The translations under genes were made by a program, and so were the position numbers. From the human T2T-CHM13v2.0 reference genome, Homo sapiens, in assembly GCF_009914755.1 (NCBI RefSeq), contig NC_060935.1: a DNA stretch of 64,000 nt, one strand, 5' to 3'. This document shows, in pieces, positions 7,110 to 42,932 of this stretch. The notes beneath the pieces were generated by a model. That model made no database searches and had not been told where the DNA came from. It saw only the letters and a program-made list of their open reading frames with translations. Every line of letters begins with the position of its first letter. The first letter of the stretch is position 1.

Positions 7110-7416
7110 TCATAAATGCTTTTTAAAGCCATGGGACTGGATATAACTAAGGATATAGTGAAGTTAAATTAAAAGAGGCCTGGAACAAAGCCCTGGGACA
7201 TTCAGCACTTGGAGGTTGGAAGGGGAAGATGAGATAGTAAAGGAGACTGAGGTAAATATGACTAATGAGGTAGGAAGGAGTCCACGTTTGTAATGGAAGC
7301 CAAGACAAGGAAGGGTTTCTGCAGTGGATTATACATATTACCTCATTTTATTCTCATAACAGCCTGTGGAGGGTATTTAAGAAAACCAAGGTAAGTGTGT
7401 CTAAGTAACTTGCTCA

Positions 7417-7590
<174 letters not shown>

Positions 7591-27115: not shown

Positions 27116-28433
27116 TTTCTTCTTCTGCTTTTTTCTTGGTAACCTTGAAAAGTTTGATACATTTTTGCATTCTGAGTCTATACTTATCGAAATATGGTAG
27201 AAATACCAATGTGTAATATTAGTGACTTACATAAGTAGCTAGAAGTTTCCATTTGTGAGAACACATTTATATTTTTGAGGATTGTTAAAGGTCAAGTGAA
27301 TGCTCTTTATAGGTAATTTACATTTAGTAAATTACGGTAAATTAAATTACTTCTCTTTACAGTAAGAGTTGGCTATTCTGGACAAACTAGCAGTGCTTCA
27401 TATAATCACTCAAACCACAGTGTGTGCAGCAGTACTAGAAACAAGACAGAAGCCCATGTCCTCAGGGTCTAGAGTGGGGGCAATTTCTTATAACCTCAAC
27501 ATTCAGGGTTGGGGGAGGTCAAGCAGAAAACCCTGGAGTTTGGGCTCTGAATTACTATAGCAGCATAGAGAGTGGGAAGGGAGGTAGAAACTGATATGCT
27601 GAATGGATATATAAAAAAGGGAACAGATCACCACTTCCAATACACGACAATGCCTGTTCTTAAGCAGGACAGACTGTAACAGAAGTATCTCGCATTGCAT
27701 TTTATCTGGGAAAAAATTAATTAATTAAAACGCTACAGGCAGGGGCTATGCACACTACCCTCAATTGCAGCTCTGAAGAGGGAAAACTCCCCCTCAGGAA
27801 GAGGAGGGGGCAGTAAAGGTCATTGTGTACACATTATCTGTTGGCAAATAATGTATTGTAGATCTTTTGAAGGAGCAAAATGACAATATATGGGAGAAAT
27901 AGATTAGATTGCTCTTCAGATTCAGAGGAAGAGTAGAGTATTTTCAAAAACATCTGTAATCATCACCAACTTTTGAGGCTTGTTATGTGCTTTATATGTA
28001 TAAACTCATTTAATTGTCACAAAAACTTCTAAGAGTGGGTACCATTATTATCCCTCCTTTATAAACAAGGAAATTGAGGCATAGAGTAGCTAAATAAATT
28101 CCAAGGGCAAAAAGCTGGCTAGGATTCAACTCCAAGTTAGTCAAGCTCCAGAGCCCACGTTCTTAACTTACTATGCTTTAGTTAAATGCCTTTCAATAAT
28201 TATCTGCCCCGACTTACAAAAACTTCTAACTGAACCAGGAGCTGGATAAGATATAGGAGAAAAGGAAACCCAAAACATGAGAATACTTCATTGAAGATAA
28301 GCAGAAACTAACATTGCATCCAAAGGTCATTGATCTGGAAAACATCTGAGAAGTGCTCTGACAATTCTGGGAAAAAATGGAAAAGAGAGAAGAAACAGAG
28401 AATCAAGTAAGTAGGTTTTTTAATTTGTTTTAA

Positions 28434-36749: not shown

Positions 36750-38494
36750 TAACTATGAATCTTGAAGAAAGTAAACTTATTTTATTTGTATATGAATTTT
36801 CAGTGCTTAGTACATACAACTATGAATTGAATAAGAAGAAAACTGTGATTTTCAGCATTGTACAAACTCCCAAAAAGAACTGACTTGCAAAGGAATTTAA
36901 TCAGTTTCTAAACAAGACTGCCAATGTAAAGTAATTCAAACTTTTGAAGTTAATGAAAATATTTATTCAAACCTAACTGTAGTACAGTCTCAAGCTGAGT
37001 TAAATAAACATTAACTATATGATATTTAGTTCCTTAGGAATAGACCACTGCCACACCATACAAATTTCTTACATCACAAGTTTTTGCAGTAAGGTTCAGC
37101 AATTAAGAAGACATGATTTCTACACTGAGAAATGTTGTGTTAAAGTTGGATGGATTTATTTTTTTAAAGGCCCAGTACAAAAAAATGGTTGAGGAAAGTG
37201 ACTCTTCAACAAAATATACACCTGTAGAAAAAAATCCCTAATATACTGATATTTAATTGAACGGAAAGTACTAAAGAGAACATACTTTAATATCTAGGCA
37301 CAATTGGTCAGGTACTAATTATAATTTCTGTTCTCATTTAAAAGTTTAAACCAATTCTTCAACTGGACTGATGTGTGTGAGTCTAATACAGAGAAGGCAC
37401 CTCTCTCATCTCTCACTCTCCTTAAGGACCTTTTGAGAGAAACTCTTTGTAACACTTTAAGGGACACAGACAATGCACTATATCTAAGTATAGATATAGT
37501 TATTTAACATACCCATTGTAGGAGAAACTAAAATATAAAACTATGATTTCTCTTTTTACATCTTATGATGGACACAACACCAGAAGATAATCCTCCACAT
37601 AAACTCTCACATAGAACACAAGATTTAAATTATATGTGCATTGGTCACTACAATGTAAAGAGTTCTATGAATTAGTGCAATTCTTTAAATCCCCAGCATT
37701 TAGGGGAAAAGTACATACCGAGAAATCTCTACTACAAACCAAAATTTTATGGCTCAATAGTCTAACCACTTAAAGTTCTGTAAAAAATCTTAAGTTATAA
37801 ATGAAAGATCAGAACATTCAATAAATGGTTTACAAAATTCTCTCTTTAAAACAAAGAGAACAGAGTGATCAGAGTAGGTAAAGTGTGAAATTCCAGAAAT
37901 ATAATACTTACAGCAATTATAAGAAAGGGGTAGTAATTCACTCTAGGAAAAAAACTCATCAAACTGTTGATTTCTAATTAGATATTTTGCTATCAGTTGA
38001 GGTGGTTATTATTTTGTAGTACTTAGTGATTGTGTATTTAAATGTCTTATTGAATAGTTACTGAAGGTAATTTATAAGAATAAGCATCATTTTCCTCCAA
38101 AACAAGTGAGAAACTATTCCAGATGAGTAAGTCTCAGAATTAGGGATCATAAGAAGTCAAAAAACACAGTGTAAGAACATTAGGTTGATTTAACCTCTAT
38201 TTCAACAAGATTTACACAGTATTTACAATATGGAATTGTCAAAGCTATACAGTTTTGCAGATTGGCTTTACTTACATTTCTGCAAACGTTTTTCCCAAAA
38301 TAAAAATATACCAAGTAAGTCTATTTACAAACTAGGAAGCTGTTTCAGAAACAGCATGATTTAGATATAAAGTGAAGTTTCAGTACAATGAAAGTGCAGG
38401 TCATGCTTTCAGATTCTGTCAATATCCCATTCCCTACACTCAGTTTAAGGGATATGAGTTTTTAACACCTACTGTTCTTATGTGTCCAGAATGT
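36750..38494 (-). other. NPAT: NPAT 3' UTR with candidate poly(A) signals
   Basis: Repeat-free AT-rich sequence after the stop; minus-strand AATAAA at 37155-37160, 36962-36967 and 36781-36786. The true end is uncertain. Confidence 0.7.
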
Positions 38495-38572
38495 TTACTC
38501 ATCATAATGCAATGATAACAAAAATTTGTCTACATCCATTCCTGCTGGAAATGAACTGGGAAGCTTCTTTTT
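38495..38572 (-). CDS. NPAT: NPAT last coding exon (18): KKKLPSSFPAGMDVDKFLLSLHYDE*
   Basis: Recognisable NPAT C-terminus; acceptor ttcaacag|; TAA at 38497-38495; 78 nt. Confidence 0.96.
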   Translation of the reverse strand, partial: KKKLPSSFPAGMDVDKFLLSLHYDE

Positions 38573-38929
38573 CTGTTGAAAAAGAGAAAGAAAAAATAAA
38601 CTCAAAACAAGGCCAAAATGCTTTCTTAGTAAGTCACCTAAAACAGTATATTGGGTTCTTTCACATACTACTAAAATTGTCAAACTTTTTTAGTCTATTA
38701 GAATTTTACTTCTATAGAGAAGTAGAGACAAGTTTTATAAACCCAAAGTTACTTAAATATACTTCAATGGCACCTGAATGTTAGTTTATGGCAAAAGACA
38801 TGATACAAATCCAGAGTGTCTGAATGTTGAATGAGACAAGATAGAACATGCTTTCTATGTTAGGTGGTTATTACTGCTTAGAAAGCTTTACTAACAGATG
38901 TTTAGGGTTACAGGTACTTATCAGTTCCA

Positions 38930-39140
38930 AAACTTAATATACACTAGATACTTTATGTATACTACATTTAGACTTCACAACCTAAGATACCTGGTAATAT
39001 CATGTCAAGTGATGAGGCTGAGACTCAGAAAGGCTACAGACTTAACCATGATCACAGGACCAATAAGCAGTAGATGCAGGATTCAAACCCAGACTTGTAG
39101 GGCAACAAAGCCTAAATTATTTCCCTGATACCATACTTCC
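38930..39140 (+). mobile_element. MIR, old and diverged
   Basis: MIR core 'gatgaggctgagactcagaaagg...atcacag...ggattcaaacccagac'. Confidence 0.75.
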
Positions 39141-40293
39141 TCTATGATATTTTAAGCACTTTCTTTCTATTCAATCCACTTACTAAACAGCTAACCAAAT
39201 CGAAAATAAATGGATTTCATTTATCAATGCTATCCCTGCACTGCCTTCCTAGAGACAACCATGCTTAAATAAAAAACATAAGGCCAGGCGCAGTGGCTCA
39301 TGCTTGTAATCCCAGCACTTTGGGAGGCCAAGGTGCGCAGATCACTTGAGCTCAGGACTTCAAGACCAGCCTGGGCAACATGGCAAAAGACTGTCTCTAT
39401 AAAAAAAAAAAACCAGAAAAAATGACCAGGCGTGGTGGCTCATGCCTGTAATCCCAGCATTCTGGGAGTCCGAGGTGGGTGGATCACAAGGTCAGGAGTT
39501 CAAGACTAGCCTGGCCAACACGGTGAAACCCCATCTCTACTAAACATACAAAAATTAGCTGGGTGTGGTGGCAGACACCTGTAATCCCAGCTACTCAGGG
39601 GGCTGAGGCAGGGAATTGCTTGAACTCAGGAGGCGGAAGTTGCAGTGAGGCAAGATCACGCCACCGTACTCTAGTGGGTAACAGCGCAAGACTCTGTCTC
39701 AAAAAAAAAAAAAAAAGGAAAAAATATTAGCCAGATGCAGTGGCGCATGCCTGTAGTCCCAGCTACTTGGGAAGCTGAGGTAGGAGAATCACTTCAGCCT
39801 GGAAGGCGGAGGCTGCAGTGAGCCAAGATCGTACCATTGCACTCCAGCCTGGGCAACGAGAGTGAAACCCTCTCTCAAAAAAATGGAAAAACATACGTAA
39901 ATTTGATTTTTCCACTGCTCTAATATGCTAACATTTTTAAGGGCCTATGGAAGAGATTACAAGACGTGGGGGAAAAAAAAAACTGAAGATCTAAGAACAA
40001 AGTCATTTATTACTTGGTAGTTCTACACAATAGTGTTTAATATTGTTTCCCAATCTTTCATGACTATGTCACGCTCATGAAAAAACTTGAGTTCTACCAA
40101 GAAAGAAAGAAAAACTTTTTTTTTCCCCCGGAAAGATGTTTATAAACAAATGCCTCAGCAGTTTTTCCTGAAAATGCTGTTTCACCTAGACACCTTGTGC
40201 GTACTACACTAACACTGCTGGACTGCTTTGTTGCCCTACAAGTCTGAGTTTGAATCCTGCATCTACTGCTTATTGGTCCTGTGATCATGGTTA
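39043..40293. repeat. 69-bp inverted repeat (arms 39043-39111 and 40225-40293; 68/69 identical)
   Basis: Direct base-by-base comparison. Also visible as the shared peptide TMITGPISSRCRIQTQTCRATK in ORFs 38898+ and 40094-. Confidence 0.97.
39282..39882 (+). mobile_element. Nested Alus: an AluS inserted into the A-rich linker of an older Alu
   Basis: Left arm ~39282-39412, full Alu ~39425-39716, right arm ~39728-39882. Confidence 0.88.
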
Positions 40294-40431
40294 TGTATTT
40301 TGTCAATGAAAACTAAAAGCTGTCTTAGCCATAACGTTCAGTCAAGTTGTTGTGGCAAGAACTGCTGAATTCGCTAATCACTAAAGCGGAAAAAAAAGGT
40401 GTGGTTTTGAAATTAAAACTTTCAAACTTGC

Positions 40432-41566
40432 CTTAATTTTCTTCTTTTTCATTGGTATTGATGAATTTGTAAGATTTTTACTAGAAGGACGAGAGTTTCG
40501 CTCACGTTCATCTAATTCCTCAATTTTCCGCTTTTTTGTGGTGCTCCTTGAAGATGCTCTAAACTGTTGTGTGTTATCTTTCAGAGGAGTTGCTGAAGTA
40601 GTCCTAGAAATGGCTGCCCTGGAGAGAATCATTAATGTGTGGGCAGCCATATTTACACTGTTTTCACTTCCTGTTTCACTGGCAGGGCTGCAGGCAGGCA
40701 AGTCTGGGGTGACAGGAGGGACCATTACTTTTGATGTACTACTGTCTTCACTGAAACGCCTACTAGAGGGGGCCTTGATAATATCTATAGGTTCTTCTTT
40801 ATGTTTTTCCCCTGCCCCTGAGCCAGGTGTCCGGGGCACAGGTAAATCACTACTATCAGCAAGCCTACTTACTGAGCTGTGCCTCTGTATATCCTGTAAC
40901 ATTTCTGTGGTAATCAAAGAACTGGCGGATTTAGTTTGTTCTTGTTTTAGATCCTTCACAGCTGTACCTACTGAAAGTACATTTTTATTGTTTGAAGATG
41001 TGCCTTGTTTTTTGGTCATTTCTTGCAGTGAAGCTATAGATTTCTCACTTCGCAAACCCCCATTTTGCTGCCCAATAGATAGTTTTGAATTTTCTGGATT
41101 TTTCTGTCTTTCTACATCGCTGCATAATTCATTCTCCTTATTAGCTGTTGCTTTATGGAAAGATTCAAGCACAATTTCTGTTGGTGAAACTTTCTTTTCT
41201 GATTGAGTTTCTCTTATGGTGGTATGCCGGCTAATGGCACTTTCCGATTTAGATAAAATCTTAGGCAGAGGAGGCTTCTCTTTCTCTCTTTTGATAGCAT
41301 TATTAGAAGGGGGTTTTAAGGTGGAGGACACATTGGGTGAGTCAAGATTAGGAAAAGAGACTGCATTCCTTTCTTTGTTTTGGGACACCATCTTATGGTT
41401 TGGCCCCTGCGTATTTGCCACAGGAGCAGTAGTGCTGTCGAAACAGAGTACACGTCTGTGGCATGGTTTAGCAGCTGGAACTATACTCTCTTCTGGGAAG
41501 GGAACTGTGGTTTCTTCTGATTTTTTCCCAATATCTGTGGCAATACTTTTGTCAGAAACTTCAGTT
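40432..41566 (-). CDS. NPAT: NPAT exon 17 (residues ~1024-1402; CDK sites S1100, T1270, T1350; basic NLS-like tracts)
   Basis: Within ORF 40381-41643; acceptor ttttag|; ends AAG|gcaagt (GC donor); 1135 nt. Counting back from a 1427-aa protein puts SP/TP motifs exactly at 1100, 1270 and 1350. Confidence 0.95.
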
Positions 41567-41671
41567 CTAAAACAAAACAAAACAAAACTATTTCTAGCAG
41601 CATAAAGAAATCCTTTATGTTTTAAATCTGAGCATTCAAACAATCTATGATAGAAACTACTTTATACTCAC

Positions 41672-41732
41672 TTTTGTGCATGACATCCAACTGAATGACC
41701 TGACGAATCCACCAAATTATTTACTTGTTTTC
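41672..41732 (-). CDS. NPAT: NPAT exon 16 (GKQVNNLVDSSGHSVGCHAQK)
   Basis: ttcag| and |gtgagt; 61 nt; restores phase between exons 15 and 17. Not shown in the ORF track. Confidence 0.93.
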
Positions 41733-41895
41733 CTGAAATTATAAATGAACATTCCTGAGAAAAAGAATATACTCCTCTGAAAGAGGATAGAACAGATGAC
41801 AATTATCACATATCATGAGAAAAAATTTTAAATGGTAGCTAATGTACACACAAATAGAACACGTTGACAAAGCAGCTTTTAAAAAGCAGCTTTGA

Positions 41896-42932
<1,037 letters not shown>

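What the first reader, a model, noticed from the sequence alone, without database searches (positions are those of the whole stretch)
39043..40293. Young 69-bp near-perfect inverted repeat built from an ancient MIR in the last NPAT intron
Seen: 39043-39111 and the reverse complement of 40225-40293 match at 68/69, about 1.1 kb apart. The left arm sits inside a longer, heavily diverged MIR. The right arm has no MIR flanks, no TSD and no poly(A). Established: MIR copies are ancient and differ widely from one another, so two independent insertions would not be this similar. Seen: in the NPAT (minus-strand) transcript the single mismatch is a G-U wobble, giving an uninterrupted 69-bp helix; on the other strand it is C-A. 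Inference: the right arm is a local inverted templated copy (template switch or templated end-joining) or is homogenised by gene conversion. It could loop out the Alu nest, shorten the intron, be edited by ADAR, or seed a 1.2-kb inversion.
Basis: partly seen in the sequence, partly recalled or inferred. Interest (0 to 1): 0.8.

Follow-up and report, generated by a model that had tools for sequence, protein, structure and literature searches.

The report
Young inverted MIR copy in NPAT
A 69-base piece of an ancient MIR repeat in the last intron of NPAT was recently copied backwards 1.1 kb away, so the intron RNA can form a long near-perfect double helix; this looks like an ordinary DNA-copying accident with no sign of a function so far.

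Summary
39043-39111 and the reverse complement of 40225-40293 match at 68 of 69 bases, or 70 of 72 for 39040-39111 against 40225-40296. The spacer is 1113 nt, and 0 of 100 shuffles gave a match. The T2T genome search found only these two places.

I built a MIR profile from 109 copies elsewhere in the genome. It places the left arm inside a roughly 170-190-nt decayed MIR (56.3 bits). The right match stops at the arm edges, and its flanks score nothing. All 18 substitutions and a 1-nt deletion that separate the left arm from the MIR consensus are also in the right arm. The right arm is therefore a late, inverted, sharply bounded copy of the left arm. It is younger than the Alu-in-Alu in the spacer.

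The best reading is one templated inverted insertion by template switch (MMBIR or snap-back type). This is a known kind of mutation, unusually long and long-range here.

In NPAT pre-mRNA, ViennaRNA predicts an uninterrupted 69-bp helix with pair probability about 1.0. It loops out two antisense Alus in a GC-AG intron.

Function, editing, age by phylogeny and polymorphism could not be tested. The feature is probably neutral.

The parts
38943..39125 (+). Decayed MIR SINE that contains the left arm (the source element)
   Evidence: A profile of 109 MIR copies from elsewhere in the genome aligns to 38943-39112 (envelope 38925-39133) at 56.3 bits, E 1.6e-17. The upstream flank alone scores 14.7 bits, E 6.9e-5. 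A tail profile extends the alignment 14 nt past the arm, to 39125, but weakly (12.2 bits).
39043..39111 (+). Left arm, the template. The minimal copied block is 69 nt, or 72 nt if 39040-39042 belong to it.
   Evidence: It matches the MIR consensus at 39 of 57 aligned positions, with 18 substitutions.
39112..40224 (.). 1113-nt spacer. It becomes the loop of the predicted RNA helix.
39283..39878 (+). Alu-in-Alu, antisense to NPAT. The outer Alu is split into 39283-39399 and 39730-39878. The inner full Alu is 39424-39702 plus an A tail, flanked by the 8-nt direct repeat GAAAAAAT at 39416-39423 and 39719-39726.
   Evidence: Four plus-strand sub-threshold SRP/Alu matches in Rfam. hmmalign places the outer pieces on Alu consensus columns 1-114 and 133-280 and the inner Alu on 1-280. 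Non-CpG divergence is 24/218 for the outer pieces and 16/233 for the inner Alu. The direct repeat was read.
40225..40293 (-). Right arm: the inverted copy of the left arm. It reaches 40296 if the 72-nt reading holds.
   Evidence: The MIR profile matches only inside the arm (19.6 bits), and the flanks give no hit even at E<=1000. Its one private change (T for C, in MIR sense, opposite 39089) departs from the MIR consensus, which the left arm keeps.
38573..40431 (-). Last NPAT intron (1859 nt), a GC-AG intron. The helix starts 135 nt after the 5' splice site and ends 467 nt before the 3' splice site.
   Evidence: The intron RNA starts GCAAGU and ends CAACAG. The frame is open across the exon 17 / exon 18 junction, with only the terminal stop.

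Best explanation
One mutational event copied 69-72 nt from the middle of an old MIR (39043-39111) in reverse-complement orientation into a site 1.1 kb away (40225-40293). The event came late in primate evolution, after both Alus had entered the spacer.

The most likely mechanism is a transient template switch of a 3' DNA end, at a stalled fork or a resected break. This is the MMBIR-type templated insertion, or snap-back synthesis, and has topology '3-2-1-4' in the four-point model. The end copied the nearby sequence from the other strand and then returned to its original template.

Shown here: the copy relation, its direction (left to right), its sharp limits, and its youth relative to the Alus.
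Inferred: the enzymology.

Consequence: NPAT pre-mRNA carries a 69-bp uninterrupted helix that closes a 1113-nt loop holding two antisense Alus. This is a thermodynamic prediction only. The helix is probably a neutral by-product and a likely substrate for A-to-I editing. It is not a selected element.
For: - Identity and chance: 68/69 (70/72) identity, and 0 of 100 shuffles gave a match.
- Copy number: the genome search found only these two places for the 72-mer, and the same two for a 211-nt query.
- Family: the core 14-mer occurs 1240 times in the genome against 11 for the reversed control, so the sequence belongs to a high-copy family.
- MIR context: the profile from 109 independent copies gives 56.3 bits on the left, with 14.7 bits for the left upstream flank alone. 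On the right it gives 19.6 bits confined to the arm, and nothing for either right flank at E<=1000.
- Shared decay: 18 of 18 substitutions and the 1-nt deletion of the left arm against the MIR consensus are shared by the right arm. The only difference within the aligned part is private to the right arm.
- No retroposition or transposon marks: no TSD around the right arm or around the whole unit.
- Age: arm divergence is 1/69, against non-CpG divergence of 6.9% (inner Alu) and 11% (outer Alu). P = 4e-4 that the copy is as old as the inner Alu.
- Known mechanism: inverted-repeat-creating template switches are documented between human and chimp. [quoted passage not shown] Germline templated insertions occur in human genomes, with junction 'microhomeology' that tolerates a 3' mismatch (PMC8421209, passages). 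The outer junction here reads AC, one mismatch, then the copy, which fits that pattern.
- RNA: 69 of 72 arm pairs are in the MFE structure of the whole intron, and the median pair probability is 0.999.
Against: - No outgroup or second human genome was available. The empty site, the true age and the junction microhomology are not observed.
- The inner junction shows no microhomology in the present sequence.
- The 1113-nt distance is far beyond the +-100 nt searched in published short-range scans (PMC7954356), and 69 nt is long for such events. This is an atypical member.
- MIR continuity on the 3' side of the left arm is weak. The left downstream flank alone gave no hit, and the tail profile adds only 14 nt (12.2 vs 7.6 bits). 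An inversion with a duplicated breakpoint is therefore not firmly excluded.
- The genome search tool gives lower bounds only.
- The age from 1-2 differences has a wide interval: 0.2-40 My, or 1.7-50 My, at 1e-9 per site per year. Error-prone synthesis could have made the mismatches at birth.
- Neutrality is assumed, not shown.
Confidence: 0.78

Rival explanations
1. Two independent MIR insertions in opposite orientation, with a 69-72-nt core later homogenised by gene conversion.
For: Both arms match the MIR profile. Gene conversion would also produce shared derived substitutions.
Against: The right flanks give no MIR signal at E<=1000, while the left upstream flank alone scores 14.7 bits. Identity drops to background within a few bases of both arm ends. 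From recall, not tested here: two old MIRs at about 30% divergence each offer no stretch of identity long enough to start conversion.
Confidence: 0.04
2. An inversion of the spacer made by a staggered break. The 69-72-nt overhang was filled in on both products and so duplicated in inverted orientation at the two ends of the inverted segment.
For: The geometry fits: inverted duplicates flank a 1.1-kb segment. MIR continuity on the inner side of the left arm is only weakly detectable.
Against: This model predicts that the MIR tail stays attached to the right arm on its inner side. The tail profile extends 14 nt beyond the left arm and not at all beyond the right arm. The right inner flank gives no MIR hit.
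Confidence: 0.06
3. Whatever its origin, the helix is kept by selection as a functional RNA bridge. It would bring the GC donor and the acceptor together, hide the antisense Alus, or serve as an editing or dsRNA-sensing site.
For: The helix is predicted with probability about 1.0 in the whole-intron ensemble. It encloses two antisense Alus. The intron has a non-canonical GC donor. The only mismatch in the 69-nt core is G-U on the gene strand. In a published catalogue, A-to-I sites are strongly enriched in long-range helices below -30 kcal/mol (odds ratio 13.2; PMC8052449, passages).
Against: Near-identity is what a young copy shows without any selection. G-U versus C-A is a coin toss for one transition. 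No compensatory change can exist with a single difference. No experimental or comparative data were reachable. Four literature searches were tried and none brought up a report on this helix. A search for NPAT + intron + A-to-I + editing gave 3 papers. The one I read lists NPAT only as a predicted miR-17 target. The other two are, by title and abstract, reviews of nuclear bodies and condensates.
Confidence: 0.07
4. An assembly artefact, or a private variant of the sequenced haplotype, rather than a fixed human feature.
For: Only one assembly could be examined.
Against: A chimeric-read artefact would be an exact copy, whereas the arms differ at 1-2 positions. The copy sits 1.1 kb from its source in ordinary unique intron sequence.
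Confidence: 0.03
5. A DNA transposon or MITE whose terminal inverted repeats happen to resemble MIR.
For: Inverted termini of 69-72 nt around a roughly 0.5-kb non-Alu interior.
Against: There is no TSD around the unit. The genome search found no other copy. MIR homology continues about 100 nt outside the left 'terminus'.
Confidence: 0.01

Closest known systems
Template-switch mutations, four-point model (Loytynoja & Goldman 2017, PMC5453318; Walker et al. 2021, PMC7954356)
   Same: [quoted passage not shown] The result is a new inverted repeat that can form an RNA stem. The switch-point order is 3-2-1-4.
   Different: The template lies 1113 nt away and the copied block is 69-72 nt. The published hominid scan searched only +-100 nt around mutation clusters, so an event of this size would not be in those lists. 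The ancestral state is not seen here.
MMBIR-type germline templated insertions (MMB-TI; Osia et al. 2021, PMC8421209)
   Same: A templated insertion from a nearby inverted template, present as a germline variant. The outer junction shows interrupted microhomology (AC, one mismatch, then the copy), as that paper describes.
   Different: Microhomology cannot be scored without the empty site. The inner junction shows none. I did not see that paper's size and distance distributions (passages only).
Inverted Alu pairs as intronic dsRNA and ADAR substrates (recalled general knowledge)
   Same: An intramolecular intronic duplex made from two copies of a SINE sequence in opposite orientation.
   Different: The best inverted Alu pairs in this window are 76-88% complementary over 160-305 nt. 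This helix is shorter (69 bp) but uninterrupted. It comes from one ancient MIR copied locally, not from two insertions.
Catalogued long-range intronic helices (PCCR, PMC8052449; PHRIC, PMC10691357)
   Same: Complementary boxes within one intron that loop out sequence. Such helices are associated with splicing and editing.
   Different: Both catalogues exclude RepeatMasker-annotated sequence by design, and PCCRs also require conservation. This helix would have been filtered out. NPAT is not mentioned in either main text (0 occurrences). The supplements were not examined.

Membership tests
MIR SINE (left element) | Significant match to a family profile over much of the element, not only the core | tested here: met
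   56.3 bits, E 1.6e-17, profile positions 49-236 of a model built from 109 genomic copies. The name 'MIR' for this family is my recall; the profile itself comes.
MIR SINE (right arm as an independent insertion) | MIR homology continuing beyond the 69-72 nt shared with the left arm | tested here: not met
   The profile match is confined to 40239-40290 (envelope 40219-40307). Neither flank alone gives a hit at E<=1000.
Template-switch / templated inverted insertion | The inserted block is the reverse complement of nearby sequence and carries that sequence's private mutations | tested here: met
   70/72 identity; 18 of 18 derived substitutions and the 1-nt deletion are shared.
Template-switch / templated inverted insertion | The block is absent from the ancestral (outgroup) sequence | not testable with these tools
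   No primate or other human assembly is held. Only relative dating against the Alus was possible.
Template-switch / templated inverted insertion | Microhomology at the switch points | tested here: inconclusive
   At the outer junction 2 nt match, then one mismatch (39040-39042 vs 40294-40296). The inner junction shows none. The empty site is needed.
Short-range template switch as scanned in the literature | Template within about 100 nt of the mutation | tested here: not met
   1113 nt between the arms, against a +-100 nt search space (PMC7954356).
Retroposed SINE copy | Target-site duplication and a 3' tail | tested here: not met
   The longest shared flank word is 5 nt and not adjacent. The flanks printed in that call show no A-rich run next to the arm.
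DNA transposon with terminal inverted repeats | TSD around the unit and further copies in the genome | tested here: not met
   No TSD. The search found only the two arms in the genome; this is a lower bound.
ADAR substrate | A long, stable double-stranded RNA in a transcribed region | tested here: met
   A predicted 69-bp helix at -133.7 kcal/mol with pair probability about 1.0. It holds 27 and 11 adenosines on its two strands. This is a prediction only.
ADAR substrate | Observed A-to-I sites | not testable with these tools
   No editing database is held. The literature search found nothing on this intron.

The most novel reading that the evidence does not exclude
The copy was kept because it works. 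It would be a hominid-age, one-step-born RNA bridge in the terminal GC-AG intron of an essential cell-cycle gene. The bridge would zip the intron from 1859 nt to about 600 nt of open path, sequester two antisense Alus that could otherwise be exonised, and form a 69-bp perfect duplex that is hyper-edited or read by dsRNA sensors.
Probability: 0.06. Interest if true: 0.55.

Novelty: new member of a known kind. Interest (0 to 1): 0.3.

Why it matters
This is a clean natural example of a single templated copying error turning dead repeat sequence into a very stable long-range RNA helix inside a gene. It shows that such events occur at kilobase range and at about 70 nt. Published short-range template-switch scans (+-100 nt) do not reach that range. 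Published long-range helix catalogues mask repeats and would filter it out.

If the helix forms in cells, it is a good test object for three questions: how far a new intronic duplex alters splicing of a weak GC-AG intron, how heavily a perfect 69-bp duplex is edited, and how fast such arms decay. As a single locus with no evidence of selection it remains a minor finding.

Tried and rejected
- Finding other MIR copies by similarity to the left element failed. The genome search returned only the two arms. A single-sequence nhmmer run and a sensitive blastn over the window gave nothing significant. I therefore anchored on a 14-mer of the arm and built profiles from the copies found.
- Rfam: no family matches either arm. 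All 9 matches at E<=1 lie in the Alus and are below their gathering scores.
- Complex multi-template event: I looked for further small templated pieces next to the arms. No word of 10 nt or more from the four flanks recurs in 37000-42500 on either strand.
- Baseline rarity: in the window this is the best of the 13 inverted matches of >=40 nt and >=93% identity, taken from 69 HSPs at >=90%. The 30 unrelated 3-kb loci (90,420 nt) held none of >=40 nt at >=90%. I give no genome-wide frequency.
- Literature: NPAT + intron + A-to-I + editing gave 3 irrelevant papers. GC-AG + intron + NPAT gave 0 papers. 'Long inverted repeats' + intronic + human + chimpanzee gave 3 papers, none on such events (listing only).
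- Rejected readings: a DNA transposon, a retroposed MIR, and gene conversion. The reasons are given under the rival explanations.

Full report
**Observation.** The repeat is real.
- The repeat finder reports a single inverted pair in 38400-40600. The arms are 39040-39111 and 40225-40296, 72 nt, 97% complementary and 1113 nt apart.
- Base by base, the only differences are at 39042 (T vs A) and 39089 (C vs T).
- None of 100 dinucleotide shuffles of the window gave any match to the 69-mer at up to 3 mismatches.
- Identity falls to background immediately outside both ends.
- In the whole T2T assembly, the search tool finds the 72-mer only at these two places. A 211-nt query around the left arm again finds only itself and the right arm. 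The tool warns that its counts are lower bounds.
- Among all inverted matches in the 64-kb window this is the best. There are 69 HSPs at >=90% identity, and 13 of them are >=40 nt and >=93%. This pair is first at 98.6% over 69 nt. The long inverted pairs in the window are 76-88% complementary and are Alu-sized.

**What the arms are.** The left element is too decayed to find relatives by pairwise search, so I took another route.
- I took a 14-mer from the arm. It occurs 1240 times in the genome against 11 for the reversed control.
- I collected 70 copies and built a profile. Iteration grew it to 109 copies from sequence outside this intron. From recall, this is the MIR family.
- The profile aligns to 38943-39112 (envelope 38925-39133) at 56.3 bits, E 1.6e-17. 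The sequence upstream of the left arm scores 14.7 bits on its own (E 6.9e-5).
- On the right, the match (19.6 bits) lies wholly inside the arm. Neither right flank gives any hit at E<=1000.
- The left downstream flank alone also gives no hit. A profile focused on the MIR tail extends the left alignment 14 nt past the arm, to 39125 (12.2 bits). The right alignment stops inside the arm (7.6 bits). Continuity on that side is therefore only weakly shown.

**Direction and relative age.**
- Over the 57 arm positions that align to the family consensus, the left arm has 39 matches, 18 substitutions and a 1-nt deletion. The right arm shares all 18 substitutions and the deletion.
- The one difference within that stretch is private to the right arm. 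The left arm and the consensus both have C there.
- The right arm is therefore a copy of the already decayed left arm. The copy is sharply bounded and has no target-site duplication or tail.
- The spacer holds an Alu inserted into the A-rich linker of another Alu, both on the plus strand. The outer pieces cover Alu consensus columns 1-114 and 133-280, and the inner Alu covers 1-280. An 8-nt direct repeat flanks the inner Alu (read).
- Non-CpG divergence from a consensus of 109 Alu hits is 16/233 (6.9%) for the inner Alu and 24/218 (11%) for the outer one.
- If the arm copy were as old as the inner Alu, <=1 difference in 69 would have P = 4e-4, and <=2 in 72 would have P = 0.002.
- The order is therefore MIR, outer Alu, inner Alu, then the inverted copy. 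The template was already about 1.1 kb from the target when it was copied.
- A clock gives 7 My (0.2-40) for 1/69, or 14 My (1.7-50) for 2/72, at 1e-9 per site per year, and twice that at 0.5e-9. The rates are recalled values. Error-prone synthesis could have introduced the mismatches at birth.

**Mechanism.** The best reading is a single templated inverted insertion. A 3' end left its template, primed on nearby sequence of the opposite strand, copied 69-72 nt and returned.
- In the four-point model this is order 3-2-1-4. Together with its mirror, that type creates inverted repeats and makes up 31% of the high-confidence human-chimp events (PMC5453318, passages).
- Germline templated insertions ascribed to an MMBIR-like process are reported in normal human genomes. 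Their junctions often show microhomology interrupted by one mismatch (PMC8421209, passages).
- The outer junction here (two matching bases, one mismatch, then the copy) fits that pattern. It could also be chance. The inner junction shows no microhomology.
- No further templated fragments lie beside the arms.
- What is unusual is the scale. The hominid scan of short-range template switches allowed only +-100 nt of search space (PMC7954356, passages).
- Abstracts seen only in the search listing state that template switching can create RNA hairpins and new miRNA genes (PMC8794818, PMC10710096).

**Rivals.**
- Gene conversion between two old MIRs is unlikely, because the right arm has no MIR flanks and no residual flank homology.
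- An inversion with a staggered, filled-in breakpoint would leave the MIR tail attached to the right arm. The weak evidence points the other way. Only an outgroup can settle this.
- A transposon with inverted termini is excluded. There is no TSD and no other copy, and MIR homology runs on outside the left 'terminus'.
- An assembly artefact is unlikely, because the arms differ at 1-2 positions.

**Consequence for the RNA.**
- The intron (38573-40431, 1859 nt, minus strand) begins GCAAGU and ends CAG. The frame is open across the annotated junction, so this is a GC-AG intron.
- Folding the whole intron puts 69 of the 72 arm pairs in the minimum-energy structure, with a median pair probability of 0.999.
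- The isolated duplex is -133.7 kcal/mol on the NPAT strand, where the core mismatch is G-U. On the other strand it is -130.2 with one unpaired position.
- The helix starts 135 nt after the donor and ends 467 nt before the acceptor. It loops out 1113 nt, including both antisense Alus.
- It carries 27 and 11 adenosines on its two strands.
- In a published catalogue, long-range helices below -30 kcal/mol are strongly enriched in A-to-I sites (odds ratio 13.2; PMC8052449, passages). Editing is therefore a reasonable prediction.
- That catalogue and the RIC-seq-based PHRIC set both remove RepeatMasker sequence, so they could not have listed this helix.
- All of this is thermodynamic inference. Co-transcriptional folding, helicases and proteins are ignored.

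**Function.** Nothing here indicates selection.
- A young copy is near-identical by default.
- One transition is G-U on one strand and C-A on the other, so the wobble on the gene strand is a coin toss.
- No comparative or experimental data were reachable. Four literature searches were tried, and none brought up a report on this helix or on the GC donor of this intron.
- I rate a selected role at about 6-7%.

**Limits.** A wider baseline of the frequency of such repeats was not possible.

**Verdict.** It is a large, long-range member of a known class of mutation, with a striking but untested RNA consequence. Interest 0.3.

Noticed in passing
window 40423-40440 (donor) and 38565-38580 (acceptor), minus strand: The last NPAT intron uses a non-canonical GC donor (AAG|GCAAGT) with a normal polypyrimidine-CAG acceptor. 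The reading frame across the junction is open to the terminal stop. A search for GC-AG + intron + NPAT found 0 papers.
   Followed up: partly
window 39283-39885: An Alu is inserted into the mid A-rich linker of an older Alu. An 8-nt direct repeat, GAAAAAAT, lies at 39416-39423 and 39719-39726. Both Alus are antisense to NPAT, and no Alu exon is annotated in this intron.
   Followed up: partly
window 27975-28174 (+), 7325-7441 (+): Other MIR copies in the window, detected by the first self-built profile (E 5.2e-16 and 1.1e-4). The first is better preserved than the one in the NPAT intron.
   Followed up: no
window 39243-39855: Sub-threshold Rfam matches to mir-1268, mir-3135 and mir-619 all fall inside the Alus. 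They are far below their gathering scores and are Alu-derived look-alikes, not miRNA genes.
   Followed up: no
window 40120-40400: The unique intron sequence around the right arm keeps several CpG dinucleotides in an AT-rich context close to the exon 17 donor (read). I could not check whether this reflects constraint.
   Followed up: no
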